Assembly: GCA_964016885.1 (NCBI GenBank)
Contig: OZ024742.1
Location: 293,942,001 to 294,006,000 of the forward strand
From: Eledone cirrhosa
Taxonomy: Eukaryota
Reading direction: 5' to 3'
Length of the DNA stretch: 64,000 nt
Shown here: positions 1 through 61,835 of the stretch, piece after piece
Layout of the letters: each line of letters begins with the position of its first letter
How positions within the stretch are numbered: position 1 is the first letter of the stretch
Translations under genes and position numbers: made by a program
The notes under the pieces: model-generated
Seen by the model: only the letters and a program-made list of their open reading frames with translations
What the model was told of the DNA's origin: nothing
Database searches by the model: none

Positions 1-3000
1 GAGAATCAGCATCAACAGGGAGGTGGCAATAGACACAATAATTCGATTCGCGACTTTCACGCGTTCCATTTGAATGAGAGGAATCAACAGAGAAATGCAC
101 TATTTCAAGCCAGCAGATTGTTCCAGGAATACTGTTGTATGGCATTCGCAAAGATCGAAAATCAAAGGCTAAATTATATAGCTACACATCAGCAACATAT
201 CAGAGCTGAATTGTATAATATACAGGATGCGATAACAGCCGATGATGCCAATTACAAGCAAATTGGTCGACGCATCATTTTACCATCGTCGTTCATCGGC
301 GGCCCGAGATATATGAACATTCGCTATCAGGATGCAATGGCTATTGTCAGAAAGTTTGGAAAGCCAGATTTGTTTATAATGGTTACATGCAATCCTGAAT
401 GGACTGATATTAAGGATGCACTTTTGCCAGGACAACAGCCAAAGGACCGTCCTGATATTGTGGCAAGAGTATTCAAAGGATATCTGAAAAAGATAATGGA
501 TGATGTGGAAAAAGAGGGAATCTTTGGAGGTATAGTTGCTTTTACATACGTAATTGAATTCCAAAAAAGAGGATTGCCACATGCACATTTGCTGATCATT
601 TTACATATAGATTGCAAATTGAGATGTGCTGAGCATGTCGACAGCATTGTGTGTGCTGAACTGCCGGAAATGAGGCACTACGCAACTTGGTGGCAAAGTC
701 AATGGTGCACAACCAATGCGGAGTGGCAAATCGGAAAGCGCCTTGCATGAAAAATGGCTAATGCAGTAAGCACTTTCCGAAATCTTTTGTCACGAACACT
801 TCCTGGAACGATGGGGATGCTCATCCCTCATACAGAAGACGGTCGCCTGCAGATGGCGGTTTGGTCGAAAATGTAAACGGTCGACAAGTTACAAAACAAT
901 GGGTTGTGCCATACAATCCATATTTGATTATGAAATATCGTTGTCATATTAATGTGGAAATTTGTAGCTCAGTGAAAGCTTGCAAATATCTATTCAAATA
1001 TGTTTACAAAGGTCATGATCGGGCAATGATCAATGTCAGGAATGAGGAAGCGAACCAAGGAGATGAAGTTGGCAGGTTCCAGGATGTTCGCTCGATTAGA
1101 TCTAGCGAAGCTTGCTGGAGATTGTTCGATTTTCATCTCAATGAACGCAAACCCAGCGTTCAGAAACTGACGGTTCACTTAGAGAATAGGCAAATGCTCT
1201 GTTTTCAAGACACTAGAAGAGGTGTCGAAAGAATTGCTAACGCACCACCTCCTGAGACGGAATTGACTGAGTGGTTCAAGCATAATAGGGAACATGCTTT
1301 GAACCCGGATCAAAAACAGCTCTACTGCGATTTTCCTTCGCACTATACGTGGGATAAGAAGGGAAAGAAATGGAATGATAGAAAACAAAAGTTGAGATTC
1401 ATGACTATTGGACGGGTTTGTAATGTCCATCCAGCAACTAGTGATGTGTTTTATCTCCAAATTCTGTTGCATAGTGATTTTTCGAGAGGTAAACAGAGCT
1501 TCGCTGATTTGAAAACAATCAATGGCGTGGAATATGAAACATACCAGGCTGTGTGTCAGCATCTGGGACTCCTTCAGAATGACGCTGAATGGAATAACGC
1601 CATGGAAGCTGCAAGAACAACACAGATGCCAGCTCAAATAAGGCAGTTGTTTGTCATGATTCTAGGATTCTGCAATCTTGCCGATCCAAGAGAGTTATTT
1701 GAACGCCATTGGGGAATTATGGCTGATGATTTTAGGCATCATCTTCAGGTCGATGATGAGCAACTGCTTGAAGTTCATTTCAAATGTTTAACAGATTTCA
1801 ATTTGCCAATTCCTGATGAAGAAATGCGGCAACGTGTCTTAGCATTGAACATGGGATTGCAGCTTAGACGGTTGCCACTCGATCGGAGGGAAGTATTTCA
1901 GTTTGACCACTGGAACAGCAATGTATTGTGGATGAACGTATACCAATGTTGACCCAATCTCAGAGAGAATTGGTCGATGGCGTTCTCCACTTGATTTCCA
2001 CTAATGAGCAACTTTGTGCTTTCATAGATGCTCCAGGAGGCACCGGAAAGACATTCTGTTTCAACACTATGTTATCGGCAGTCAGAGCTCAGAGGAAGAT
2101 TGCTCTCCCTGTGGCCACCAGTGGGATCGCTGCCACTTTGCTGAGCCGTGGAAGGACCTTCCACTCATGCTTCAAGGCTCCATTGGCTCCGGATGAGTTG
2201 AGTGTCTGTAACATTACAGGACAAAGTGAACGCACGGGCCTTATACGCAATACGTCTCTGATTATTTGGGACGAGGCTCCAATGGTACACAGATATTTAC
2301 TGGAGGCATTGGACAGAACTTTGAGAGATATCTGCGGTAGTGACCTGCCATTCGGTGGTAAGTTCTTGGTGGCAATTTCAGACAGGTGCTACCAATTGTT
2401 AGGAATGCTCAAAGAGCGCAAATTGTTGATGCATGTCTGAAAAAGTCCCCGTTGAGGCGTCATTTCAGAGTTTTGCGATTACACGATAATATGCGACTTC
2501 ATACGGCCGATGGTTGATGCAGTTGGGAAACGATGAATTGCCACACATTGGTGATAATCAGACTGTAAGAATCCCAGACTATTTGGTCATGCCACTGAAC
2601 CGCCAAGCATTGGGTGTTCCCTAATTTGAATGCTTTTTGGCAGAATATCTCCGGGATATCGGAACGCGTTATTCTAACTCATACGAATGCAACGGTCGAT
2701 GAAATAAATTCACAAGTAGCCGGAATGTTTCCTGGAGAGGAATGGTTGACCGTCAGTGCGGATGCAATGGAGCCTAATCAGCAGAACAATATGGATGTTC
2801 CGACTGAGTATCTGAATTCACTTCAAATACCCGGATTTCCCCCACATATTTTGAGGTTGAAAAAGGGTATGCCGATTATATTGCTTAGAAATATCAATCA
2901 TAAATTGGGTCTTTGCAATGGTTTCAGATTGATTGTTGAGAAATTGATTAACGGAAGAATTTTAGAAGCTAAACTCTTAGGCAGAGAGGAATCGGTTCTC

Positions 3001-3279
3001 ATTCCGAGGATCATGCTGAGACCAAGTAACGATCTGCTGCCATTCATTTGGCAAAGGAGACAGTTTCCCGTCAATTTGGCCTTCTCCATGACTGTCAACA
3101 AGGCAAAGGGACAGACTTTCAAGCGAGTCGGTGTCTACTTGAATGATCCAGCATTCAGCCATGGGCAACTGTATGTTGCTGCATCTCGAGTGTGCGATCC
3201 TGATGGTATAAAATTTGCAATTGATAAAACTAACAGAGGAACAACCCTGAATATTGTCTATAATGAAGCTTTGAGCTGA
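1..3279 (+). mobile_element. Helitron RepHel (HUH Rep + PIF1 helicase), disrupted by stops and frameshifts; 5' part lies outside the window
   Basis: ORFs 70-750 (GKPDLFIMVTCNPEW; EFQKRGLPHAHLL HUH motif), 861-1952 (WVVPYNPYL..HINVEIC..KYLFKYVYKGHD), 1928-2440 (Walker A DAPGGTGKT, SGIAATLL, DEAPM) and 2614-3279 (QFPVNLAFSMTVNKAKGQT, FSHGQLYVAASRV, NIVY). Confidence 0.96.
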
Positions 3280-7916: not shown

Positions 7917-8799
7917 CAGGGTGAGAACGATATTTGTTCGCAAGATTACTGTCTAGGAAAAAATAATACAGTAGTTTTATTTTTTAAGATTTATTTATCA
8001 AACTTGGGTCAGTTTGTCTTCATGACTTGTTCTTTCGATCTCACTCGATAAACCCGCCATTGGCTTTGATGACAGCCTCAAGGCAGCCTCGGAACCGGCT
8101 ACAGGCCTTCGTCACTGTCTCCCGACTTAGGCCCCTAAAGGCACTTGTGATCCTGGCCTTCAGATCGTCTTTCGTATTGCAGCTAGATCTGTTGGTGTCT
8201 CGTTCCACTGCGCCCCACACAAAGAAGTCGAGGGGGTTGCAGTCAGGCGAGCTGGGAGGCCAGATGTCAGGTGAAGTGTGGTCGACGAAGTTCTCTGACA
8301 GCCAGGCTTGGGTCTTTCGGCTGTAATGGCAGGGCGCTGAGTCTTGCTGCCACACATACGGCCTACCTGCAGCTACCTGGTCCATCCAGGGCTTTACTAC
8401 CTCACTCAGAACGCAGATGTAGCCATCGGTATTCAGCTTGAGGCCCTCAGGGAAGAAGTGGGGTGGCATGACATCACCTTGACTGCTGACGACACCTAAG
8501 ACCAATGTTGTCGCTGGAAACTTTGTCTGCATGACTCTGGGCACGTCTTTGGATGAGACAGCGAGCCACCTGTTGTTCTGGGAGTTGATCTTCTGGTCCT
8601 TATTTGTCCTCCCGGCGCGGATTCCAAGAAGAACTCCGTGTCTCTTCCACAAATTTGGAGGTTTAAAATTATTCATAATCAATTATTCTGAAAATAATAT
8701 AGTCACTGTTTTTATGAAGACAAGAGTGACAACGGAAGTAAAAAAAAATTGCATAAAATTAGCAGTTGAAAATTGCGAACAAATATCGTCCGCACCCTG
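7917..8799 (-). mobile_element. Tc1/mariner DD37D (maT) transposon, internally deleted
   Basis: 27-bp TIRs (cagggtgagaacgatatttgttcgcaa / ttgcgaacaaatatcgtccgcaccctg) with TA TSD. ORF 8041-8682 has QQD-37 aa-D (WPPSSPDCNPLD); the first catalytic D and most of the HTH are missing. Confidence 0.93.
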
Positions 8800-12673: not shown

Positions 12674-15600
12674 TTTTCTTTATTAACCACAAGGGTTTAC
12701 ATAAAGTAGACATTAAGGACAGTACAGGACAATACAGGACGGTACAAATGGGCATTTCTGCGTGTAAAAAAACAGAGGTTGAAATAAAATAACAAAGAAA
12801 AATTCCCCAATAGGGGGGAGACTTCCGAGGGACATTTGTGGAGAAAGCCCATTAAAAGACCACAGTGGCCCTGACCACCAGGGCAAGTGCCCTCTCCCAG
12901 TTTTCCACCTTTAATTTACAGACACATACTCAGAGAAGGCCCATTCATTCGGGCCATACTTGCTTCTCTCACCCATCTTTCAACAAAATGCTGGGAAGAG
13001 AGCACTTCCCTCTCTACCCTGATTTTCCTTTTCAAATGAAATTTGAAAAAGTTAATCAGGGCATCACCGAAGAGGTAAGTGCTCGTCTTCAGCCCTTTCA
13101 AACGTGTCCACCATACTATCTCTTTCGCCATGGCCACCAGACAGATAAAAACTGCCTGCCCTTCCCGGCTAAAGGAAGGGGGCGGGGCAATCCTCACGAT
13201 GGACTCAGCTGATAGCTGGATCCGTCCTACACGTGACAGCAGGTGTTCGACATAAACCCACAAGTCAGCAATGCTCGGACACTGGACGAGTGCGTGCAGG
13301 ACGGTTTCGTCGCCCTGCGCGCATCTCGGACATGCCCGGCTGACGGCACCTCCATGCCTGTAGAGTTTATCCCGAACTGGCAAAGCTCCTCGGTAGCACT
13401 GCCAGGCCAGGGATTTCTGGAAGTTGTCCATAGGCCCCGGCCCGAAAGTCCTTCCGAAGAGATTGGCTAGTTGATTTTCGTCGGCGCCTAGAGTTTCTCC
13501 AAGTACGTCGTCGCTCTTCCCCTCCACTAATCCCCTATAGAACGCCAAGGTGGAGTTTCCACCGATCACATTGCCCGATTGGTCGAGGGCTGTGAGCGCC
13601 TGAAGACATTCCAGTCTCCAAGCGCTCCCTCTCGGTCTTCGCTTGACCCAGGACTGCAGCTCCGTCAAGGAGACGAGCTGGGGAAAAACGTGTCTAGCAA
13701 ACGGCGACCACACCTGATCACCGTCGAGGAAGAGGTGGAGATGTCGTAGCCTGAGCGCGTGTCTGCGCATCATCAGCCACGGCATGCCCAGCCCTCCACG
13801 TAGCGGGTGTTGACAGCAGATGGACCGCCTGACCATCGCTCCAGCGCAGTCAGGCGGGGCTTAGGACAAGGTACGACGGTCAGGCGGTAGTAGATGACGG
13901 ATGCGATGTACGCATTCGCCACCTCCGCTCGACCTTTCAGGGATAGCTTCCTCTCGGCCCATTTCTGGGTGAGAGAAGCCACCCTGCTCGTCACCTCGTC
14001 CCAGTTTTTGTCCGTCTGGAGGTCTGGACCGAACCAGACCCCTAGCAATTTAACCGGTCCGTCCGTCCAGCGCCCGACGACGCTGTTGGACGGCATGGAC
14101 CTGCCTCTCCAGGTGCCGAGCTGCAGGCCCACTGACTTTTCCTGGTTGATCATTGCTCCTGTCACCGCTTCGTATTCTCTTAGTGTAGTGCCGATCGCCT
14201 CGATGTGTTTGGCGTTCGACACCACTACGGTGACATCGTCGGCATATGCTGACACGGATCTTCCGCATCCTAGTTCGCGCGGGACCCCCCTCAACGTCTC
14301 CAGTTTGTGGAGTAATGGCTCGAGAGTCAATACGTACAATAGGGACGAGAGGGGACATCCTTGGCGGACCGAGCGCATGATGTTGAACGGTTCCGAAAGG
14401 TGACCGTTCACTCTCACTTCAGAGCAGATATCGCTGTGCATGGCAGCGATCCAGCCTCTGAAGACGGGCCCAAAGTCAGCCGCCCTCAGGACTGCCGCTA
14501 GGTAACGATGGTCGACCCTATCGAAGGCTTTCGATTGATCTAAATTGATCAAAGACCCACCCTTGCCAGGTTCCCTAGCTACCCTCTCTACGATGTATCG
14601 CATGAGGTGGAGGTTGTCGTGGATGGATCTGTCGGGAATGGCGCATGCCTGTGCCTCTCCCACCAGACCACCAACGACAAGCGCCAACCTCTTTGCTAGC
14701 ACCTTGGCCAAAATCTTGAACTCTGTGTTTAGCAGAGTTATGGGCCTAAAATTATCTATGTTATCCCCCTTGTTCGGATCCTTTCTCAGCAGCGCCACCG
14801 CTCCTCGGCTCACAGAGCTGGGAATTCTCCCGTTCTGTTGCCAGTTGCAGTAGACGTCCGCCAAGAGGCCTCCGAACAAGTTTGGCATTTGTACGTAAAG
14901 TTCATAGGGCAGACCATCCAAACCAGGCGATTTACTCCTTGTGCAACTAGTCATTGCATCCCGTACTTCAGCGGTTGTTATCGGCTTTTCGCAACACTCC
15001 GCCTCAGTGGCCGAAAGCCGCGGCAGTCCGTCGAGGTAGACACTAAAGTCCATCCCTCGATCCGGCCCGCCACTGCCCCCCGAACAGTTGAGCGAAGTGT
15101 CGCTGAAAAGCTTCACACATTTGCCCGGGATCGAGTAGCATGCGCCCGTCGTGGTCCACCAAAGACCGGATCGTGGCTTTGGTGCCACGACGCGCCTCCG
15201 CCACTCGGGCCCATTGAACGGCTTTCGTCCCCTCGTGTCTGAGAGCACGCACCCTAGCTCTGACAACGCAGCCTTCGTGCTTTGCATTGAAGAATTGGTC
15301 AAGGGCCAATTTCGCTGCAAGTACGTCGGTCGCGATGCCTTTGCTAAGCACCTCGTCTAATTTTCTAACTAGTTCTCCCTCTGCTCTATTTTTCTCTATT
15401 GCTAAAGTCTTACTAAACCTAATGGACTCTATTCTAATTGCTCTTTTCAGAGCAAACCACCACTTGTTGTTGACGATGGCCCCCGTCAACGCCCGCTTAA
15501 CTAGTTCGCTAATCCGGTCTCTGTAGGCCTTGCGCGATGGTAAGGACGCGTTTAGCTTCCAGTAGCCGGGTCCTCGCCTATGAAGCCTATCTAAGTCAAG

Positions 15601-18508
15601 CACACAGATCACGAATTTGTGGTCCGTGTAGCTGACTATCTTGAATTGTGGACAGCCTATGCTAGACCTATCTATTTCCCTACAAAATACTCTATCTAGA
15701 TATGATCTGGATGACCCTATGCGATTTGTCCAAGTCCACATTGGTACATTCGGGAAATCCATTCGGTACCTGTCAGACAGTTCAAAACGTCTGAGCAGGT
15801 TGGTGAGACTCTTGCACCCTCCTTCCCTATCCACTAATCCCACACAATCCCAGCGTGCATCTAAGATCCCGTTCCAGTCGCCCACTAACACTAAAGAGCG
15901 GGACGTTCCAAGAAAGGTCTCCAGACGCCGGAAGAAATCAGGCCGCCCTGCTCCTGTCGGGGCATAGACGGCCACTAACCTGAAAGCTTGCCCGTCTCCG
16001 CTGGTCACGTCCAGCACCACCAACTTACCTTCTGGGTCCAGGAAGATGGCCCGTATGGCAAGATCCAAACCTCTCCGAAAAAGCACAGCAACTCCTCCCC
16101 CCGATCCCGGACGGCTGGGAGATGCGTACACATCGTAGCCGCCGAAGATCGGTGCGAAAGCCTGTGCTTGGAGATTCTGGTCTCGCTGATGGCCACTACA
16201 TCTATGTTTAGTGACCTGAGGTCGTTGAGCAGGTGGCCCTGCTTCCATGACGACCCCAAGCCACGCGCATTTATGCTGCCTATTCTGAGTGAGGTCATGT
16301 TGAAAAGGAGTGGAAAAGATGGGAAAGACCACTTACCTTACTTCTCGTAGGGGAAGGACGGTTTTTCCATCCTTTTCACTGCTTGTGGCCTCCTCAGGAA
16401 GGATGTCCTTATAAATCCTCCTGGAGAGTGCTTGTCGGAAGTCTCCGATGTCTTTGGGGAATTTTTGTTTTAGTGTCATGTACGTTTTCTGTGTGATGCG
16501 AGTGATTTGTATGTGTGGCGGTGGTGTGAATTTTGGGGTTGTTGTGTAGTCTTTTTCTGTGATGCTGGTGTTGTGTTGGATGTAGTGTAATAATTGCTTG
16601 TTGTTCAAATTTAATGCTGTGTAGTGTGTATCGTTTTGGTTGTTTTGTTTTGTTTGCGTTTGTTGTGGGTTTGTTTCTGTTTCGCATTTTGGTGACTTTT
16701 GTGGTGTAGGTGATGGTGTGTTGGAGTTAATGATGGTGATGGTGTTGGTGTTTGGGTTGATGGGGTTGGTGATGCTGGTGTGGATGGTGGCATATCTGTC
16801 CTAACTTTTTTGTTTCTTAGTTTATTTGTTTCCCTCTGTATTTTGTTTTTGGAGGGGGAAGGAAGAGAATTTTTTTTCTTTTTTGGTTTCTTTTTTTTTC
16901 CGGATATCGTTTCCCACTCCTCGTCGTCACAATCTGTCTCCAGTTGTGATAGGCCGGGGAGTGGTAAATCCTGCACAGCCGTTAGTTTTGGTTGTGGTGT
17001 GGTGGATGGTGTAGGCGCTGGTGCTAGTTCTGAAGCGTTGGGTGGTGGTGGTGTTGGTTTTGCTACTGTTGCTGGGGTTGTTGCTGTTATAGTTGCTTCT
17101 GTTGTTGCTGCTACAGTTGTTGCTGCCATCTCTGCTACTGGTGGTGTTGATGGTTGTGTCACTGGGGTGGGTAGGAGAGGTGGCCTCAACCTTTTAGCCT
17201 GAGGGCAGAAAACCCTTAGGTGGGTTCCTTCACCACAAACGACACACCTAGGTCTTCTGCCCTCGACAATTACCGTGAGGTGGCTGCCGTCAGTGAGGTC
17301 TATTACCTCTGGGATCTCCTCAATGCTTTTTTGGTCCGCTTGGATCAGGAGCTCCATCCCAGATCCGGACCAGTTTTCCTGCTTTTCTTTTGCTATTGCT
17401 ATTATTTTCGTGTTGGCTTCGATGCCGGCGAGGACAACCGCTATTAGCCAGGGAATTTCGATGGCCGGTGGAACGTGGGTCACCCTGATCTTTACGAGTC
17501 TCTGGCCACAATAGCTTGGGACGAGTGTGAAGTCGTCACTTTTTAATGGGGCCATGGAGTGTTCTCTAGCCTCCTCTGGTGTTTCAAAGAACACATCCAC
17601 GGTTCCATACTTTTGCCCACGTCTGATGTGGGTTTTTCTTGCCCACACATGTCCCAAAGCTTTTTGGATTTGGGACTCGGATGCCCGTTCCACTCGGCGC
17701 GATTTTACATTTATTGTTCTATACGACACGGTGCATAGGCGCCGATGCTCCATTTTATTAGGTGGGGGGGAGGCTGACCCTGTACCCATCTTTCTTTACC
17801 ATTTGTTTGGCATTTTATAAATCCTCTTGAGTTACCGTGAATGCTTCGAATTGTTTTGCTACTATGGCGAAACTGAGGGTCGGTTTTATAATGTCATTGT
17901 TGTTGTTGTTGCTATCGTTATTTGTGTTAATATTAATTTTAGTTTCAGTTGTGGTGGTGGTGACGTCAGTCGTCTTTGGTGCGGAAGAGTCCATTTTGCT
18001 TGATTTCATTTCGATATCACGAGTTAATTTATTTTTTTCTTCTTTTGTTTCTGTTGTCGCGGTGGTGGTGGGGGTGGTGGTTGTCGCGGTGGTGGTGGTG
18101 GTGGTGGAGGCTTTAACACCTGCAGTCATTGGTAATGGCGGGAAATGAATGTCTGCTTGAGACAAATTTAAAATATTGCTACTGCTTATATTTTTTTTTG
18201 TGTTGGCAAACGTAGTAACATTTACAATGGTGGTGTCGGTGTGAGGTGTTATTTTGTGAGGAAGGCTTTCAGCTGCTTCGTGCAGAGGGGAATTAGCCAT
18301 TTTTTTTCAAAGAAATTTTTGGATAATAATAAAAGTTAAAATTTTGGGCACAAGGCCCCAATCTTTTTGGGTGTCCTTTTCGGAAAACAATGTATGTGTG
18401 CTTATAAACAGTTAACAATAAAATTTTCCATAAATGGCAATTTTTAACAAACGGAAATAACAAACCTTTGCGGAGCTCACGATGATACGATTTACTACGT
18501 AGGTCGCC
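12671..18508 (-). mobile_element. Near full-length Tx1-clade (L1-like) LINE, frameshifted
   Basis: ORF1 pieces 18300-16333 with CCHC knuckle CVVCGEGTHLRVFC. ORF2 pieces 16298-12916: APE (SINARGL, AISETR, LVGDWN, YLDR, TDH), RT (KSPGLDG, RPITLLN, DQSKAFDRV, VRQGCPLS, AYADD) and C-terminal CPRC..ETVLH..C. AATAAA near the 3' end; (TAA)n on both sides. Confidence 0.93.
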
Positions 18509-24128: not shown

Positions 24129-24179
<51 letters not shown>

Positions 24180-24372
24180 GTAATCTGAGTTTTTAGAATA
24201 TTAATAATAACATTCGATTCGCTTGCAATTATGCAAACAAGCCTCAATTTTGTAGCCATGTCAGTAGAATGAAACACTTCATTCTTGCTCTTGTGTTGGC
24301 ATGTGAACAGAACTGCAAACACTAATGTTTCTGGGTATCACCCTTCATCAGTACAGCTCACTCTTTACATGC

Positions 24373-24434
<62 letters not shown>

Positions 24435-33830: not shown

Positions 33831-36338
33831 TGAGTCCTCGCTCGATATACGGTATATATGCATTCCTGAAAGCCTTACCGTATATCGAATTACCGTATAA
33901 AGAACCCATTATAATATGAAATAGGTAGGGATGCGTTCCAGCACATTGAAAAAGTCATCCCTACAGAAAAGAAATAATGTTTTATTTTATTTACTGTACC
34001 TTACATATGCCGCGTAGTCCATCAGATGATGTGCCTCTTCATTTGTCCCTCCCGAGGCTAAGGGACAGTATGGGTTTCAGCCCTTACTCATCTTGGGCTG
34101 AGTTGGCAGGGGAGGATGAGGGTGATGTGGGAGGCTCAAAACCAACAAACTCGTTGACTGCAGTGGATGTTGAAGGGCCAGCTGTAGCACAGTTGGCAGG
34201 TGTGACTGGCTTGAAGAAAGAGTAGATGGAGGACTGTTTAGCGGTGTTTCTTTTGACTTCATACATTTCTTGGTAAATCTTGACACTTTTCTCAACGTCT
34301 TAAGCCACTTTGCTGCTCCTAGAAGGGTTGGGGTCACGCTCCTTCAGAGTTTCTAAGATTGTTCCGATACTTCCGAGACATTATCTTAGAGTTTTATGTC
34401 CAAGCCACGCACAGGTTCTTCTTCCTCCTCTTCTTCTTTTTCTGTCTCCTGTATCGCCTTGTCTAGTTCTCTGAGTTCATCATTGGAGAGTGGTTCAGTG
34501 TGGCTTTCCAAAAGGTCTTGCACATCATCATCATTAACACCATCGAAGCCAGCTCTATGGCAGAGATTTACAATATCTTTTTTTATTGCACCAATGTCCT
34601 CAGCAAAGCCTTGGAGTCATTCACATATGTTGGCCATAATTTCTTCCAAGCCAAGTTCATGGTAGACTGCTTCACTTCTTCCCAATATGCCTTGATGTTG
34701 TCTAAGCCGTGCTTGATGTTGTACAATTTCCACCATTCCTTGATCGTGGGCTTGTCAGGCCCATCTGTGCCCTTTATCAGCTGCTGCATGGTTCTCCGCT
34801 GGTAGTATGCCTTAAATGCTTTGATGATTGTTTGATCCATTGGCTGAATGAGAGCTGTGGTGTTTGGGGGGGGGGGGACAAAATGTCAATATTTTCTGAC
34901 CAGTCTTCCATTGCCCGTGGGTGGCTGGGGGCGTTGTCCACTAATAGCAGAAAATGGTTGGCAATGTTGTTAGCTAATGCATATTCCTTAAGGGTTGGTG
35001 ACAGATATGAGGTGAAAAAATCCTGGTGAATTGAAGTGATCAGCCATGCCTTCTTATTAGACTTCCATATCACTGGTAGGTATTGCTTAAGTAACCCCTT
35101 GAGTGCTCTGGGAGTTTCAGAATGGTAGATAATGAGTGACTTTAGCTTTAAATCTCCTTCTGCATTCCCTCCAAGTAACAGAGTAACGCGGTCCTTTGAG
35201 GCTTTGAACCCCTTCGCACTTTTCTCCTCCTTGTCAATATAAGTATTACTGGTCATCTTTTTACAATAAAGTCCTGTTTCATCATAATTATTAACCTGTT
35301 TTTTGCTGTACCCCTTCTCTGCAATGCATTTCTCTAACTCTGCCTTGAATTTTTCAGCACTTTCTTTGTCGGAACTGGCAGCCTCACCTGTAACTTTTAT
35401 GTTGTGAAGACTCAAACGTCGTTTGAACTTATCAAACCAGCCTTTGCTTGCCTTGAATACAAAGTCCTCCACCCCCATTTCAGTCTTGAGCCTGTCAATA
35501 ATGGACAATGCTTTCTCACTGATTACATTTAAAGACAGAGGCATATTTTGATGATTTTGGTCGTCAATCCAAATTTTGAGCAACCTTTCCATCCTATCCA
35601 TAATCGGCTCACGATGTTTGGTCAACAGTTTACTCTGTAGACTCGTAGCATTCTCCCCAGCTTTTTTGACAGCCTCACTATTTTTTAAAACAGTCCAGAC
35701 TGTAGACTGGGCTAGGCCTAAGTAACGACTTATGGCAGACGTACCTTGCCCCTGTTCCTTCCTTTTCAAAATGTCCAGCTTTATCTCCAAAGTCAGGCTC
35801 TTCCTCATGCGTTTGGCCTTTCCATCTGCATCAGCAATATTCGCAGGACTTTTGGTGCCATGAGATATGGGGTTATAAGATTTGCCATGATAATTATGCT
35901 CCAAAAACACACCGTCGGGTTTTCTCTTACTTTGAATGACGTCATAACTCTTAACTGATCACTTCAGTTCAGCAAAAATTCTTTCACTGAGAGGACATGC
36001 TAGTTTGACGAACTGAAGTGATCAGTTAAGAGTTATGACGTCATCAACCGATATCTGAACTCGCTCATGATTGGCCAGTTTCTCGGTAAAGTCAGTTAGT
36101 ATGATAGCAGTAGTAACACAATTTTCCCTAGAATTCGAATAGCAGTCAGTTTCCACGAATTCAAGGGGGAATTTATTGCTTACTACAGGTGGCGTTATGG
36201 TACAATATAAACAAAACATGACCAAAAACAGTATCTGTGAATTTTTTTTACCGTAAATAGAATTGATGGTAGTAATTACCCAAAACCGTATCTGTGAATT
36301 TACAGGATAAAGAACTACCGTATATCGAGGACGCACTG
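33828..36338 (-). mobile_element. Full-length Tigger/pogo DNA transposon with disrupted transposase
   Basis: TIRs cagtgagtcctcg(ctcg)atatacggta / taccgtatatcgaggacgcactg, TA flanks. ORF 34777-35910 has CENP-B-like HTH, NYDETGL and VDNAPSH; it continues after a frameshift at the G-run (~34870) as MDQTIIKAFKAYY, with further pieces to ~34084. Confidence 0.94.
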
Positions 36339-43962: not shown

Positions 43963-44148
43963 CCCTTTAACATTTAAACCGAGCGTATCCGGCCAGAATT
44001 CTCTCACCTCTTTCTATTCAAACTGGCTGCTTATAAGGTATTGTTCTCAAAATTAATATCAAAATCTCATAGATTCGATATTATGTGAAATAAAGTGTTT
44101 ACCATGAAAATACAATAGGAACTATAGAGTAATGTAAATATTAAAGGG
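43963..44148. mobile_element. TTAA MITE
   Basis: ttaa|ccctttaacattta ... taaatattaaaggg; related to 52753-52970 and 61057-61253. Confidence 0.7.
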
Positions 44149-46000: not shown

Positions 46001-46577
46001 GTATCAGGATAGAATCAGTTTGAAACTGGTTAAACCATTACTCAACTTACTTGATACCTGGGGTAGTATGACTATATTATAAGGAGTCGGGACCCGACGG
46101 CTGAACTCTTGCCATTTCAAAAGCTAGTTCCAGACTATTTGAAATAGTATAGTCATGAACTACCCTGTGATAAACAAGCGAAACTCCAGATTGACAACTC
46201 ACTATTCATCCTTAATACTCTGGTATTGAGTACTTTCTCTCAGTCGTCCAGCAACACGGATATATATATATCCGAAAAGATGAAAAGCAAAGTTGATCTC
46301 GGTGGGATTGGAACTGGAACTAAGTGCAGTGAGTCGGGAAAATACTGAGACATTTAATTCAACGCCTTAACAACTCTGCCAATTTACCTCCTAAGAGCAC
46401 GAAATAAAACGAAAATATCCCCTCAGATTCGCCGGATCCATTGCGTATTTTAGGGTTAGGGTTTGAATGCCCTTGTTGTGGATGTACAGTGAATATATAT
46501 GTGAGTAAAGCAGGCAAAATGAATATAGCGTATACGGTGATACAACTTAAATAATATTGAATATATTAATAAAGTAC

Positions 46578-46821
46578 CTTTAAATGGTCTGAAGACGATC
46601 GCTTTATATTTGACAGGATAAACAACAAACCCTCGACTGGGCTGAATCAGACCGGCACCAATGTTATCAATAGAAGTTACAGCAATTACAAATCCATATT
46701 TCCCAGTACAGGTGCCTTCAACTTCCGTAAATAATTTCTTGCGTACGATATTTAATAGATTGGGGCCAAAGTATCGTGGATGAAGTAGAATTTCGTGTTC
46801 TAATGACACGTGGTAAAACAT
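46578..46821 (-). CDS. POLR2G: RNA polymerase II subunit RPB7, exon 1
   Basis: [22 protein letters not shown]...KAIVFRPFK, then G|GTACTT phase-1 donor at 46577. Confidence 0.97.
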
Positions 46822-47658
46822 TTCTAGAAATTAGTTGATAAATAGTCAACACCAAAACTGAAACAACCTCAACTTCTCGCTGAGATAAAACTATGCTTTC
46901 TACGTCACGACAATTGCGTACTGACTGTTGCTTAGGGTATTATTTTAGTATTAATACGTTAATTAAATGTTATATTGTGTATAGTGTAGTATTTAATTTG
47001 AGATTCTGTGTTTAGTTTCAGATTCATTATTATACTTTCGTTCTATTACTGTGTTTTGTAATTTTTTAATACGAAACTAATGCACTAAATATATATTTGA
47101 CGTATTAATAAAGGTTATAATTAAGACATTGGATTACAACGCAATAGTGAAAAAATAGAATGACGTTAGAATGTCAGATAAAATGCTTGGTATTTATTCC
47201 AGGTGTCTACACACTGATTGAAATCTCGCTTAGGTCGACTTTTGCTTTTCACCCTTTCGTTATCGATTTTTAAAAAGTAACAGTCGATTCTCTCTCTCTC
47301 TCTTCCCACACATACACGCACTATATATATATATATATATAATATCGGCGCTATGGTTGTAGTTCCGAGTTCAATCTCAATGGATGGCTCATGGGGTAAA
47401 AGTGTCTGTCACTATCCTACCAAAATAAAATTGCTGAAGAAATTGTTTGTCTGTAGCTTGTCACTATTTTGAGTCCTCAGATAGGTAATAAAATTGTCCA
47501 GCCTTCTCCAAAAAAGGCTGAAAAAGAATAACAATAATTAATGTTATTCGCAGTGTAAGCAGACCAGTGGTCAGATTAAATGATTTAAATAATAAACAAA
47601 ATGAAAATTTTTCACTTTTTTATTTACAAATATCAAGACAGGTCGGAAAAAAAAACTG

Positions 47659-47731
47659 CGACCACGACGAGACTCGAACTCGCAATCTTCTGATTCGAAG
47701 TCAGACGCCTTATCCATTAGGCCACGCGGCC
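47659..47731 (-). tRNA. tRNA-Arg (TCG)
   Basis: GGCCGCGTGGCCTAATGGATAAGGCGTCTGACTTCGAATCAGAAGATTGCGAGTTCGAGTCTCGTCGTGGTCG, 73 nt, full cloverleaf; T9 Pol III terminator 3 nt downstream. Confidence 0.96.
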
Positions 47732-49554
47732 ATCCTGCCAGAGACATCTAAAATTATTATTAATATATTATACAAAACCAATTTCTTTTTTTTTGCTCTA
47801 GTTTCTAATTTTTTTAAATTTTTTATTGCGTTTTATAAGTCATAGAGATTGTAGCTAAACTATATAATCATCTAAACTATATAATCATCTTACTAGTATC
47901 CAATCCTGACCTAGATGGATTTTCGTTCTGTCCTTAAAAGAATTTCGGTAGCGGATTATCAAATGTTATTAAGCATTTCTAAATATTATTTAAAATGTAA
48001 ATAAATTGTAATGTTTTAGTAAATAAATTTATATTTACTATTATTAATTCACTTTTTTTCTTTCTGAAATAATTCGATAAATTTCTCTAGCCTTTGGTAG
48101 TTTTGCGAGATTCTGACGAGATCTCATTTTTTAAACGAAAATACGAACATGAGATAAATATTTCCTTTCTTTTTTTTAAATAAATTTACTTAATTAAAAT
48201 ATTAGATAATGTTTTGCTCTTTCACGTACACACACGCGTGTATGTAAATATATATATATATATATATATATTCAGGTTTATGTTTTCAGTTCTCCCGTTT
48301 GTAAACCCAAACAAGCTTACCTAATGCTGGCGTAAAGTAACGAACTCGAATCCCATGAATTTTTTTAAAATGGAAGGCTATCAGAGATATAATCGAGATT
48401 GTAAATATTTTCACAATGGAAATGCAAAAAAAAAAAGTAGAATCTTATTTTACGCTACAAGAAGTTCTCTTGTTGATGTCTCTGATCGTTCTTGTTCTTT
48501 ATTAATCGCTGTATTCTACCAGGCACACCCATCTCCGATGGTTGGACTTCACATATGGGATAAGGAGAATGAGATTAAATATGCCTTACAGAATCCAACG
48601 ATTAATAATGGATTGCATTATTTCCCCAGAACGATCAACGAGACATTTTCAACTTTCACTTTTTGTGATGAAGAATATTTAATTCGAATAGGCTATGTAG
48701 ACGGTAAACCCTAAAGGGACGCAACACACATCGCTATAGCGTTTCACCAGCCCCTTCTATTGTATGTATCTGTTTATGTATTTCCGTGTAGATCTCTCTC
48801 GACGCTAAACTCCGTCAGTTGCAGACTGTGCATCAACATGAGAGATTTTTCCCCACTAAGTTCGATTACCAACGGCAGAGTTTAAAGAGCAATGGTCAAA
48901 TTCAGTCCATAAGTTGACATTATCAAGCCGTCTTTTTGGCTGCCGACCTCTACCTCTTCTACCAGCCAACTTTCCTTCTAGGCATAACCTACTCACACCA
49001 CGAGTTGATCTTTTGATATGACCGTACAGTTTAAGCACTCTTGACCTAACAACTAATGTGTGTATGTAACTAAAGTATAACGTACGTTGCGAATGGACGA
49101 CTAAATTTGTTAACAATTGATGGTGGAAAAGATTTCAAATTGTCTTAACTCTGGCCGTAACTCATGGTGTATGACACTCTTACTGGCTACATAGCCTCTT
49201 TCAATATAATTCAACCAAAACAAGTGCAGGCATGGCTATGTGGTTATAGGAGTAACAACGGACACAAACTCCACATAGTAAATGATAAAATGAAATATAT
49301 TTATAGATTTTAATAGCTAACGTTATGAAATGCAATTTACTTGATAAAGAATAAACTAAAACTTTATAAACATTAACATTCATCTTAGATTAGAAAAATA
49401 AGGCATTAAGAAGAGTGTTTGGAATGTTTTCTTCTTTCTTTTGTAAGATTAATTGGCCCAGCTAGTGTGTATGGTAAAAACAGTTGTTAATCCTTCATCT
49501 AAAATTTGAAAATCTCCAAAATACAAAAATATTTTCAAAGAAAGAAGCACCACA

Positions 49555-52369: not shown

Positions 52370-52750
52370 AAATTGGATTGCAGATTCAATTGCATGTGAA
52401 CCTAACATTGCACAACAAATTGTGCAGATTCAGTTGCATGTGAACATAGCATTGGACTACAAATTGTGCAGATTCAGTTGTATGTGAACTTAGCATTGAA
52501 ATGCAAATTGCACAGATTTGGTTACATGTGAATTTAGCATTACACACCAAAGTATGCAGATTCAGTTGCCATGTGAACCTAATATTGCACTATAAAACAT
52601 GCAGATCCAATTGCATGTGAATCTAATATTGCACCACAAAGTGTGCACACCTTTATGAAAACTTAATACTTCACTACAAATTATGCAGGTTCAGTTTTAT
52701 GTGAATCTAATACTGCACCACAACATGCAGACTCAGTTGAATGAAAACTT
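52370..52750 (+). repeat. Minisatellite, ~42-44-bp unit, about 9 copies
   Basis: Consensus ~attgcaccacaaattgtgcagattcagttgcatgtgaacctaac. Confidence 0.85.
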
Positions 52751-52752
52751 AA

Positions 52753-52970
52753 CCCTTTAGCATTTACATTACTCTATATTTACTATTGTATTTTCACAGT
52801 AAACACTTTATTTCACATAATTATCTCACATAATATCAAATCTATGAGATTATGATATTATTTTAAGAACAATACCTTAAAATAAACATGAGCGGCCGGT
52901 TACAGCCAGTTTGAACAGAAAGAGATGAGAGAATTCTGACCGGATATGGCCAGTTTAAATGCTAAAAAGG
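52753..52970. mobile_element. TTAA MITE
   Basis: ttaa|ccctttagcattta ... taaatgctaaaaagg|ttaa. Confidence 0.75.
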
Positions 52971-53235
52971 TTAATGCTACATCAGAAAGTCTGTCACATG
53001 CACATTAAATCATCGTCATTATTAAACCATTATTGTTATTTAAATCAGAAACCATTATTATCTGTTTAAATCTGCTTTTTTTCTGAAGTGGCAAAATCGT
53101 CAGTAAATATTTGCACATTCTGAGTAATAATTCTCTTTACACCATTTCTATCTTCATTACTGGGTATAAAATTTTAATAAAATAAACGTTTTGTTTCCTT
53201 AATAGTTAACACTTCTCGCTTGGTATTTTTGATTC

Positions 53236-59871: not shown

Positions 59872-60432
59872 CATGCATTTCACATCTGGCTTAGGCCTAT
59901 TACCAGCTTTGGGTGTCTTCATTTTACATCTGACCTGGGCTTTATTACCAGTTTTGGAAGGTCTACATTTCACATCTGGTTTGGACCTTTTTATCAGCTT
60001 TAGAAGGCCTACATTTCACATCTTGCTTGGGCCTATTATTAGATATGTAAGTCTATGTTTTCCATCTGGCCTGGGCCTATTACCAACTTTATGAGCCTAC
60101 ATTTTACATCTTGATTTGTGAGCCTATGTTTTCCATCTGGCTTGGGCCCATTACCAGCTTTGGGAGCCTACATTTCACATCTGGCTTGGACCTATTATTA
60201 GATATGAGTCTATGTTCTATATCTGGCCTGGGCCTATTAGTCACTTTATGGGCCTACATTTTACATTTGCCCTGTGACTATTACCAGCATCAGAAGCTTG
60301 CCTTTTACATCAAGCTTCTGACAATTATCAGCTGGTGTAAGAGGCTATATTTTTCATCAGGCCTGGGCTTATTACTAGCTTGGATGAGGAGAAGGTGCAT
60401 TTTACATCTGACTTTGGCTTATTATTAGTAGC
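59872..60432 (+). repeat. Minisatellite, ~42-bp unit, about 13 copies
   Basis: Consensus ~gcctacatttcacatctggcttgggcctattaccagctttgg. Confidence 0.88.
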
Positions 60433-60947
60433 TTTACACAGGCCTGTCATTACAACCATCTCCAGCACTAACTGTATCACTTAAGTAATAAAACATACTA
60501 CTTTTAGAGAGCTATTTGATCAACTTATTGACTCTCTTATTTGTGGATGTCCTCTCCGCTAACTATCGCTTTACATTTATCACATCTCAAATTCTGCTTC
60601 TCAATCACTTAACTAAACATCCTTCAGAATTTTGTTGTGTTCACTTTCATTGCTTTGACTACATAATATTGAGTTCTAACTTTGCCCCTATATATCAATC
60701 AAAAGAGGGCAGCAAATTGGCAAAGTCGTTAGAACGTTTGATCGAATGCTTTATAGTATTCATTCTGGCTATCTGCACTCTGAATTTAAATCTTTGCTTT
60801 TCATCCTTTTGAGATCGATAAAAGAGTACCAGTCGTTTCAAGAATCCATAGTTAATAAAGTAAAACAATTTTAAAGGTTTTTTGAATCAATTTTTAAAAT
60901 AAAGAGAAATTTATTAACTTTGAGACTTGCATCATCCAAATCCAAAA

Positions 60948-61013
60948 TTAATGTCCTGATGAAGCTTTAGTGTTACCTGGTAACAGTGAAGTTGAAACGT
61001 TTGTAGGCATTAA
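60948..61013 (+). ncRNA. Putative type-I hammerhead ribozyme
   Basis: TTAATGTC-CTGATGA-AGCTT..(tgttac ctg gtaaca)..AAGTT-GAAA-C gttt GTA-GGCATTAA: 8-bp stem I, extended stem II, GUA cleavage triplet. Confidence 0.78.
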
Positions 61014-61056
61014 TGAAATGATTTGAAGTACCTTCTTTGGTTTTCAATTGATTTAA

Positions 61057-61253
61057 CCTGGTTGCATTTAAACCGGTTGTATCCAGCCAGAATTTTATCA
61101 CCTCTTTCTGTCCAAACCAGCCACTCATACTGATGTTAAGATATTGTTCTCAAAATAAATAACATCAAAATCTCATAGATTAGATATTATGAGAAAATTA
61201 TGTGAAATAAAGGCTTTTCTGTGAAAATATAGAGTAATGTAAATGCTAAAGGG
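61057..61253. mobile_element. Decayed TTAA MITE
   Basis: Homologous to 43963-44148; ends taaatgctaaaggg. Confidence 0.6.
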
Positions 61254-61835
61254 CTAAATATTTTTATGCTTTGTATTCTTCCAAAAGTGGTTCATTCATT
61301 GAGCTTTTTAGGATTTGGTAATAAACAGGTCTCATACCAAATTTACTCATCTCAAGCACCCAGCTGTAAAGTGGTCGTGTAGGTGTCATGACAAAAAGCA
61401 CCCAGTACACACTGTAAATGTGGTTGGTGTTAAGAAGGGTATCTAGCTGTAGAAGCCAAGCCCAAATCAGTTTTGTATGAGTCAAACGTGGTCATCTGGC
61501 CTGGCTTATCTCATAACAGGACATATCTAACCTATGCTTGCATGGAAAAATGGACGTTAAATGGTAATGATATATAAATATATATATACATATATATATA
61601 TGAGGATGATGATATATATAATCAACATAATTTAACATGTGATTTTTTTTATTCAAGCATAAGGTCCATGTCTCATATACATTCCAGATTTGGCATGGTT
61701 TCTACAGTTGATACCGTTGCTAATGCCAACCACTCTTCAGTGTACAGTGGATACATTTTATTAAGGGTCCAGCACTATGGAGGTTGTCATGCCCTTAACA
61801 CAACTGATGAGTCCTCTGAACCTTTTCTCTCTTAC

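What the first reader, a model, noticed from the sequence alone, without database searches (positions are those of the whole stretch)
60948..61013. Canonical-looking type-I hammerhead ribozyme in otherwise anonymous DNA
Seen: the full core CUGAUGA/GAAA/GUA, an 8-bp stem I (UUAAUGUC/GGCAUUAA, one G-U), stem II AGCUU/AAGUU extended by a UGUUAC/GUAACA hairpin, and a 2-bp stem III. Known: minimal type-I hammerheads mark Penelope-like element pLTRs and retrozymes. Inference: this is a solo pLTR or retrozyme-like unit of an unannotated family and may still self-cleave.
Basis: partly seen in the sequence, partly recalled or inferred. Interest (0 to 1): 0.75.

Follow-up and report, generated by a model that had tools for sequence, protein, structure and literature searches.

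The report
Fossil hammerhead in decayed Penelope element
This is a real hammerhead (self-cutting RNA) motif, but it sits in the broken tail end of an old jumping gene of a known type, one of at least 160 decayed copies, and it is predicted to cut poorly or not at all, so it is ordinary.

Summary
The motif is really there (60947-61014, +; predicted cut after 61005) and far above chance (1 hit in 300 shuffled windows). The DNA is not anonymous. It is the 3' end of a truncated Penelope-like retroelement (60839-61353), with an inverted 5' piece and a later TTAA-flanked insertion. The family has at least 162 candidate copies, none closer than 86%. Walking upstream through siblings reached a broken RT plus C-terminal endonuclease gene with Hydra-clade motifs. 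One sibling shows ribozyme, start codon, RT and endonuclease in order. Hydra elements with hammerheads are published, including one from octopus (PMC8557442). No same-strand tandem was seen, so it is not a retrozyme. Across 38 copies the core is as mutated as its flanks, and 11 of 38 keep it, about what chance gives. This copy has no partner ribozyme in cis, a damaged dimer loop and a predicted slipped stem I. Cleavage is untested. Earlier notes of this scan report other Penelope-type hammerhead families in this genome, but none matched this sequence. Verdict: a new family member of a known kind, low interest.

The parts
60947..61014 (+). Type-I hammerhead motif: stem I 9 bp, core 60956-60962, long stem II, GAAA, 2-bp stem III with 4-nt loop; predicted cut after 61005
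   Evidence: Sequence; folds; alignment of 38 copies
60839..60915 (-). Inverted piece of the same element: family positions about -88 to -5, the stretch that normally lies just upstream of 60918
   Evidence: blastn to siblings on the opposite strand, 76-86% identity; profile hit; both junctions inside one contig of run X1
60918..61056 (+). Forward arm of the Penelope-like element (family positions +1 to +139) that carries the hammerhead; ends at the family's short terminus
   Evidence: 162 candidates, 40 scored, best other copy 86%; 41 of 72 arms end at +120 to +150
61057..61253 (.). Later insertion: about 200-bp element with short terminal inverted repeats, between TTAA (61053-61056) and a one-mismatch copy of it (61254-61257); piggyBac-like label is recalled
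   Evidence: Termini compared; copies elsewhere in window and loci, 71-94%; very deep repeat cover
61258..61353 (+). Rest of the Penelope-like arm: the roughly 100-nt 'tail' to the family's long terminus (+238)
   Evidence: Aligns with siblings that lack the insertion; profile hit +137 to +238; 19 of 72 arms end at +225 to +250
60690..60835 (+). Left neighbour: an abundant unrelated repeat that stops short where the inverted piece begins
   Evidence: Three other copies continue past this point with other sequence; deep repeat cover

Best explanation
The motif is the hammerhead of the 3' terminal repeat (pseudo-LTR) of a truncated, decayed copy of an old Penelope-like retroelement family that is likely of the Hydra clade, and this copy is predicted to be a passive fossil rather than a working ribozyme. 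Shown: the repeat family, its link to a broken RT plus C-terminal endonuclease gene, two fixed 3' ends about 100 nt apart, and equal decay of core and flanks. Inferred: an ancestral tandem transcript carried this hammerhead with a self-complementary loop III, so that two copies would pair and cut, probably with help from the element's protein. The element's enzyme nicked AT-rich DNA and began reverse transcription at either of two sites downstream of the ribozyme, giving short- and long-ended arms, often back to back. This copy stopped after about 330 nt, later took a 200-bp insertion in its tail, and has drifted since.
For: Family: 162 candidates, best other copy 86%; homology extends about 1.5 kb upstream across siblings. 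Gene link: the upstream part encodes a C-terminal endonuclease region; 7 of 24 loci fetched with it carry the window unit downstream on the same strand, one being the seed locus. Sibling L152 has the hammerhead arm (77% to the window unit), a start codon 40 nt past the long end, and broken RT and endonuclease pieces at 37-57% to an intact 832-aa relative. Hydra motifs seen: DKT, CxCX5C, CxxC, CxH, no CCHH cysteine pair (definition in PMC8557442 section 11). N-terminal, RT and linker stretches match the published Hydra proteins by eye. Homologs carry PF26215 and in 2 of 120 PF01541. The U-U opposition at the base of stem II in the family (32 of 38 at each side) also appears in many published Hydra hammerheads. 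Ends: 41 short, 19 long, 12 other of 72 arms; 45 of 72 have a microsatellite within about 40 nt against 18% background. Decay: mismatch rate 0.111 core, 0.113 stems, 0.124 flanks; 11 of 38 cores intact, about 8 expected from the core rate. This copy: active fold 3.9 kcal/mol above the minimum; in-register loop-III dimer +1.3 against -9.5 for siblings with the family loop; an off-register duplex that would bury core bases scores -7.7; slipped stem I probability 0.69.
Against: No cleavage assay. This copy has a stronger stem I than most siblings, and a comparable architecture (2-bp stem III, tetraloop) cleaved 22% as a monomer in axolotl (PMC7229834 passages). Young intact relatives also score poorly as monomers in the same fold test, so that test discriminates little. 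Core G/C columns are slightly less mutated than stem or flank G/C columns (0.116 against 0.17, 4 columns). Pfam here and PDB recognised neither RT nor endonuclease, and no tree with named Hydra proteins was built. The unit is about 5 kb against 'generally <3 kb' for Hydra, and RWK reads RWR in relatives. This copy has no microsatellite at its ends.
Confidence: 0.85

Rival explanations
1. Same origin, but this copy still self-cleaves measurably as a monomer if transcribed.
For: All 13 core positions intact; only 7 places in the genome match a tight family pattern with intact core, this being one; 9-bp stem I and long stem II; axolotl precedent of 22% monomer cleavage (PMC7229834 passages).
Against: Minimal PLE hammerheads showed no monomer cleavage (PMC4209133 parts 1-2), and the anole one needed its protein (PMC11167929 parts 1-2). 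Predicted slipped stem I 0.69 and stem III 0.008. G10.1-C11.1 is absent.
Confidence: 0.25
2. It is a monomer of a non-LTR retrozyme that moves through circular RNA.
For: Type-I topology; other families in this genome are reported as retrozyme-like by earlier unchecked notes; retrozymes are proposed to derive from pLTRs (bioRxiv 10.64898/2026.07.22.740005, part 1).
Against: 0 of 73 overlapping loci hold two same-strand copies; both two-copy sites are inverted; copies are variably 5'-truncated ends of a coding element.
Confidence: 0.03
3. This one copy was domesticated and is kept by selection for a host role.
For: Intact core; a single-copy open frame on the same strand 12 kb upstream (48325-48714) could be an exon of a host gene.
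Against: Chance explains an intact core in about a quarter of copies; the copy is 16% from the family majority, above the 14% mean; a probable allele differs at 60963; no gene spanning the site was shown.
Confidence: 0.03
4. Chance look-alike.
For: No Rfam hit; covariation does not beat the column shuffles clearly (20-21 of 500 for two measures, 123-336 of 500 for the other three).
Against: 1 hit in 300 shuffles; 83.7% of cells paired against 29-53% when slid; position matches that of hammerheads in intact relatives.
Confidence: 0.01

Closest known systems
Hydra clade of Penelope-like elements, including Hydra-1_Obim of Octopus bimaculoides (Craig et al. 2021, PMC8557442; section 11, passages and supplement parts read)
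   Same: C-terminal endonuclease, DKT, CxCX5C linker, CxxC and CxH, no CCHH, sense-strand hammerhead near the 3' end, microsatellite targets, inverted 5'-truncated arms.
   Different: Hammerhead sequence differs from Hydra-1_oBim; stem II is 12-13 bp; unit about 5 kb with a 3' region above 1 kb (published: generally under 3 kb); tail about 100 nt (paper: 30-40 bp); RWR rather than RWK in relatives.
[quoted passage not shown]
   Same: Type-I topology, long helix II, extra base after the core, palindromic loop III in the family, mostly single dispersed motifs, some opposite-strand pairs.
   Different: Longer helix I (9 bp against 4-5); G-U in place of the usual G10.1-C11.1; this copy's loop III has lost its in-register symmetry.
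Poseidon PAc of the green anole (Frangieh et al. 2024, PMC11167929; parts 1-2 of 4 read)
   Same: Two fixed 3' ends defining a tail; hammerhead upstream of them; AT-rich targets.
   Different: In PAc both start sites lie inside the ORF; here both ends lie upstream of the start codon (long end 40 nt before it in L152) and about 100 nt apart.
Metazoan non-LTR retrozymes (PMC7229834, passages read; bioRxiv 10.64898/2026.07.22.740005, part 1 of 5 read)
   Same: Type-I hammerhead in an AT-rich animal repeat.
   Different: No tandem monomers; linked to a coding element.

Membership tests
Type-I hammerhead (PLE type) | Conserved core CUGANGA, GAAA, UH | tested here: met
Type-I hammerhead (PLE type) | Three helices around the core, helix I open | tested here: met
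   helix III only 2 bp
Type-I hammerhead (PLE type) | Self-complementary loop III for in-register dimers | tested here: inconclusive
   Met in siblings L164, L168 (-9.5); not in this copy (+1.3, two U-U)
Type-I hammerhead (PLE type) | G10.1-C11.1 pair (typical, not universal) | tested here: not met
   G-U in 25, A-U in 10, G-C in 1 of 38 copies
Type-I hammerhead (PLE type) | Self-cleavage after H17 | not testable with these tools
   Needs an assay
Rfam hammerhead models | Score at gathering threshold | tested here: not met
   No hit on the motif
Penelope-like element (EN+) | One ORF with RT and endonuclease beside a hammerhead-bearing terminal repeat | tested here: met
   Family level: L152, L153; the window copy itself holds no coding sequence
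Penelope-like element (EN+) | 5' truncation, inverted arms, optional tail | tested here: met
Hydra clade | C-terminal endonuclease without CCHH; CxCX5C linker; CxxC and CxH | tested here: met
   Family copies L153, L158 and intact relatives, read
Hydra clade | DKT motif | tested here: met
   L152
Hydra clade | RWK motif | tested here: inconclusive
   RW then a stop in L152; RWR in intact relatives
Hydra clade | Insertion at (TA)n | tested here: met
   45 of 72 arms near a microsatellite of any listed type against 18% background; not this copy
Hydra clade | Generally under 3 kb (a tendency in the paper) | tested here: not met
   About 5 kb estimated from L152 and L153; 5.05-5.2 kb between hammerheads in three intact relatives
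Hydra clade | Groups with Hydra RTs in a tree | not tested
   Named Hydra proteins were compared by eye only
Non-LTR retrozyme | Tandem 150-450-bp monomers, each with a hammerhead | tested here: not met
Non-LTR retrozyme | Non-coding family | tested here: not met
Non-LTR retrozyme | Expressed as circular RNA | not testable with these tools
   No RNA run was on offer

The most novel reading that the evidence does not exclude
This insertion records twin priming by a Penelope-like element. The inverted piece ends 5 nt before the point where the forward arm begins, with no duplicated sequence, as if both DNA ends were primed on one RNA and the second primer landed internally. Sibling L068 shows a similar near-abutting inversion. 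With the two start sites 100 nt apart upstream of the start codon, this would extend the two-site model to the Hydra clade. One search listed three papers on other elements and no report of this in PLEs. A later deletion of the outer half of an ordinary inverted arm explains it equally well, and the clipped repeat on the left favours that.
Probability: 0.2. Interest if true: 0.45.

Novelty: new member of a known kind. Interest (0 to 1): 0.17.

Why it matters
The motif itself matters little: a loose hammerhead pattern matches about 15,300 places in this genome against about 1,040 for the control pattern, and this is one decayed example. The by-products are more useful. Hydra-like elements are very abundant here (21,719 candidates for one RT piece; about 40 of the 150 scored sit in open frames of 800 aa or more, hand count), while Pfam here misses them. 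Intact 5-kb copies with two identical hammerheads offer ready material for testing what these ribozymes do and where reverse transcription starts.

Tried and rejected
Rfam at both thresholds: no hammerhead hit on the motif. Covariation as proof of selection: rejected. The one clear two-sided change (A-U in 23, G-C in 8 of 38) follows a subfamily split, so it may be a single event. Pfam on five family fragments and three intact ORFs, and PDB on one: nothing relevant. Expression: no RNA holder listed; this is no evidence either way. Host gene: an RPB7 exon at 46459-46830 points away from the site; the single-copy frame at 48325-48714 stayed unidentified, so whether the motif lies in an intron is open. 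A reading of the family's ORF on the strand opposite the hammerhead was dropped once the endonuclease appeared on the same strand. No target-site duplication was seen for this copy. The microsatellite mask over-masked; only unmasked columns were used. Eight of 46 full-length copies with large gaps or truncated ends were left out of alignment A1. Paper searches. The O. vulgaris repeat paper (PMC13282606, passages) mentions Penelope-like elements but not hammerheads or Hydra; its library and the preprint's supplements were not seen and may already hold this family.

Full report
Observation. The motif is present as described, on the + strand at 60947-61014. Stem I has 9 bp with one G-U. The core is intact. 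Stem II has 13 pairs with one G-G mismatch. Stem III has 2 bp and a 4-nt loop, and the predicted cut is after 61005. The region folds better than shuffles (z -3.6). A core-and-stems descriptor found 2 hits in the window and 1 in 300 shuffled windows. Rfam does not recognise it. One contig of run X1 spans 60794-61093 without a difference.

The genome. It has 3.0 Gb in 1796 contigs. I did not pursue its identity. A loose hammerhead pattern matches 7616 + 7672 places against 525 + 511 for the reversed control, so such motifs are common here.

The family. The 139 bases at 60918-61056 have 162 candidate copies, of which 40 were scored; the best other copy is 86% identical. Siblings share sequence up to about 1.5 kb upstream. 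That upstream part encodes, on the hammerhead's strand, the C-terminal part of a Penelope-type protein. Of 24 loci fetched with it, 7 carry the window unit downstream on the same strand, one of them the seed. Sibling L152 is nearly full length: hammerhead arm, a start codon 40 nt past the long end, then broken RT and endonuclease pieces at 37-57% identity to an intact 832-aa relative. Intact relatives have ORFs of 830-855 aa; in three of them two hammerheads of their own lie 5.05-5.2 kb apart around the ORF. No intact member of the window's own family turned up.

Clade. Craig et al. 2021 (PMC8557442, section 11) define Hydra by a C-terminal endonuclease without CCHH, a CxCX5C linker, CxxC and CxH motifs, DKT, RWK, canonical hammerheads and (TA)n targets. 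The family meets all but RWK, which is unreadable in L152 and RWR in relatives. Its unit is longer than the usual 3 kb. The supplement lists Hydra-1_Obim from octopus, with a different hammerhead, and shows a U-U opposition at the base of stem II in many Hydra hammerheads, as in this family. Protein stretches match by eye. Pfam here and PDB found nothing relevant; precomputed domains on homologs include PF26215 and, in 2 of 120, PF01541. That PF01541 is GIY-YIG and PF26215 typical of these elements is recalled. No tree was built, so I say likely Hydra.

Anatomy of this copy. A family profile maps three pieces: 60839-60915 inverted (positions -88 to -5), 60918-61056 forward (+1 to +139), and 61258-61353 forward (+137 to +238). 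Between the last two sits a 200-bp element with terminal inverted repeats at a duplicated TTAA. Across 72 distinct arms, 41 end at +120 to +150, 19 at +225 to +250 and 12 elsewhere. The profile itself ends at +248, but 14 of the 19 long ends run into microsatellite. Two fixed ends match the tail signature that Frangieh et al. 2024 traced to two reverse-transcription start sites (PMC11167929); that the same holds here is inferred. Both sites with two hammerhead arms are inverted, and none is tandem, which rules against a retrozyme as defined in PMC7229834 and the 2026 preprint.

Is it alive? In 38 aligned copies (46 full-length found, 8 left out for gaps or truncation) mismatch rates are 0.111 in the core, 0.113 in stems and 0.124 in flanks. 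Eleven cores are intact, against about 8 expected, in a set biased towards this copy. Stems pair in 83.7% of cells against 29-53% when slid, but covariation is weak, and its main case follows a subfamily split. This fits a structure built by the ancestors and neutral decay since. In this copy the family's self-complementary loop III has changed. The in-register dimer scores +1.3 kcal/mol against -9.5 in two siblings, and the palindrome that remains is off register and would bury core adenines. A rare G at 61007 allows a slipped stem I (probability 0.69). The left arm lacks the hammerhead, so there is no partner in cis. Against this reading: young relatives also fold poorly as monomers, and a similar axolotl motif cleaved 22% alone. 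Published PLE hammerheads did not cleave as monomers or needed their protein. I put measurable monomer cleavage at about 0.25.

Novelty. This is a new family of a described clade with a described ribozyme, in a host group where the clade is already reported. The one oddity is the abutting inversion, also seen in L068. It looks like twin priming (term recalled from L1 work), but the clipped repeat on its left suggests a later deletion. Interest 0.17.

Noticed in passing
window about 24177-24375, - strand, core at 24351: A second type-I hammerhead (3-bp stem III, short stem II) between two (TA)n runs. It belongs to a young family: 1379 candidates, top copies 95-97% identical, often in inverted pieces, no match to the Hydra-like protein in 11 loci. 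A better candidate for an active ribozyme than the finding.
   Followed up: partly
G000 genome-wide; L148-L161: Large expansion of Hydra-like elements: 21,719 candidates for one RT piece, about 40 of 150 scored in open frames of 800 aa or more, many near-identical, units about 5.1-5.2 kb. Larger than the published Hydra elements and missed by the Pfam copy here.
   Followed up: partly
window 60963: A/G difference next to the core in 2 contigs of each of runs X1-X3 at roughly single-allele depth; probably a heterozygous site.
   Followed up: no
window 61057-61253; 52749-52974; 43971-44148; L005: A TTAA-flanked terminal-inverted-repeat element with three copies in the window; in L005 one sits at the same short end of this family.
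   Followed up: partly
window 48325-48714 +: Single-copy 129-aa open frame with no Pfam hit, near a tRNA and the RPB7 start; possibly an exon of an unidentified gene.
   Followed up: partly
window 46459-46830 -; 47659-47731 -: RPB7 (RNA polymerase II subunit) N-terminal exon and a tRNA gene.
   Followed up: no
window 762-3279 +; 12916-17795 -; 8041-8682 -; 34777-35958 -: Other mobile relics: PIF1 helicase region (Helitron-like, recalled), an RT plus endonuclease LINE (label from reading the ORFs), and two DDE transposases.
   Followed up: no
window 59876-60293 and 52379-52723: Degenerate tandem arrays with a 44-bp period.
   Followed up: no
alignment A1, columns 19 and 77: One subfamily has a C-A mismatch next to the core in stem I in 17 of 24 copies, so the mismatch looks ancestral there.
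   Followed up: no
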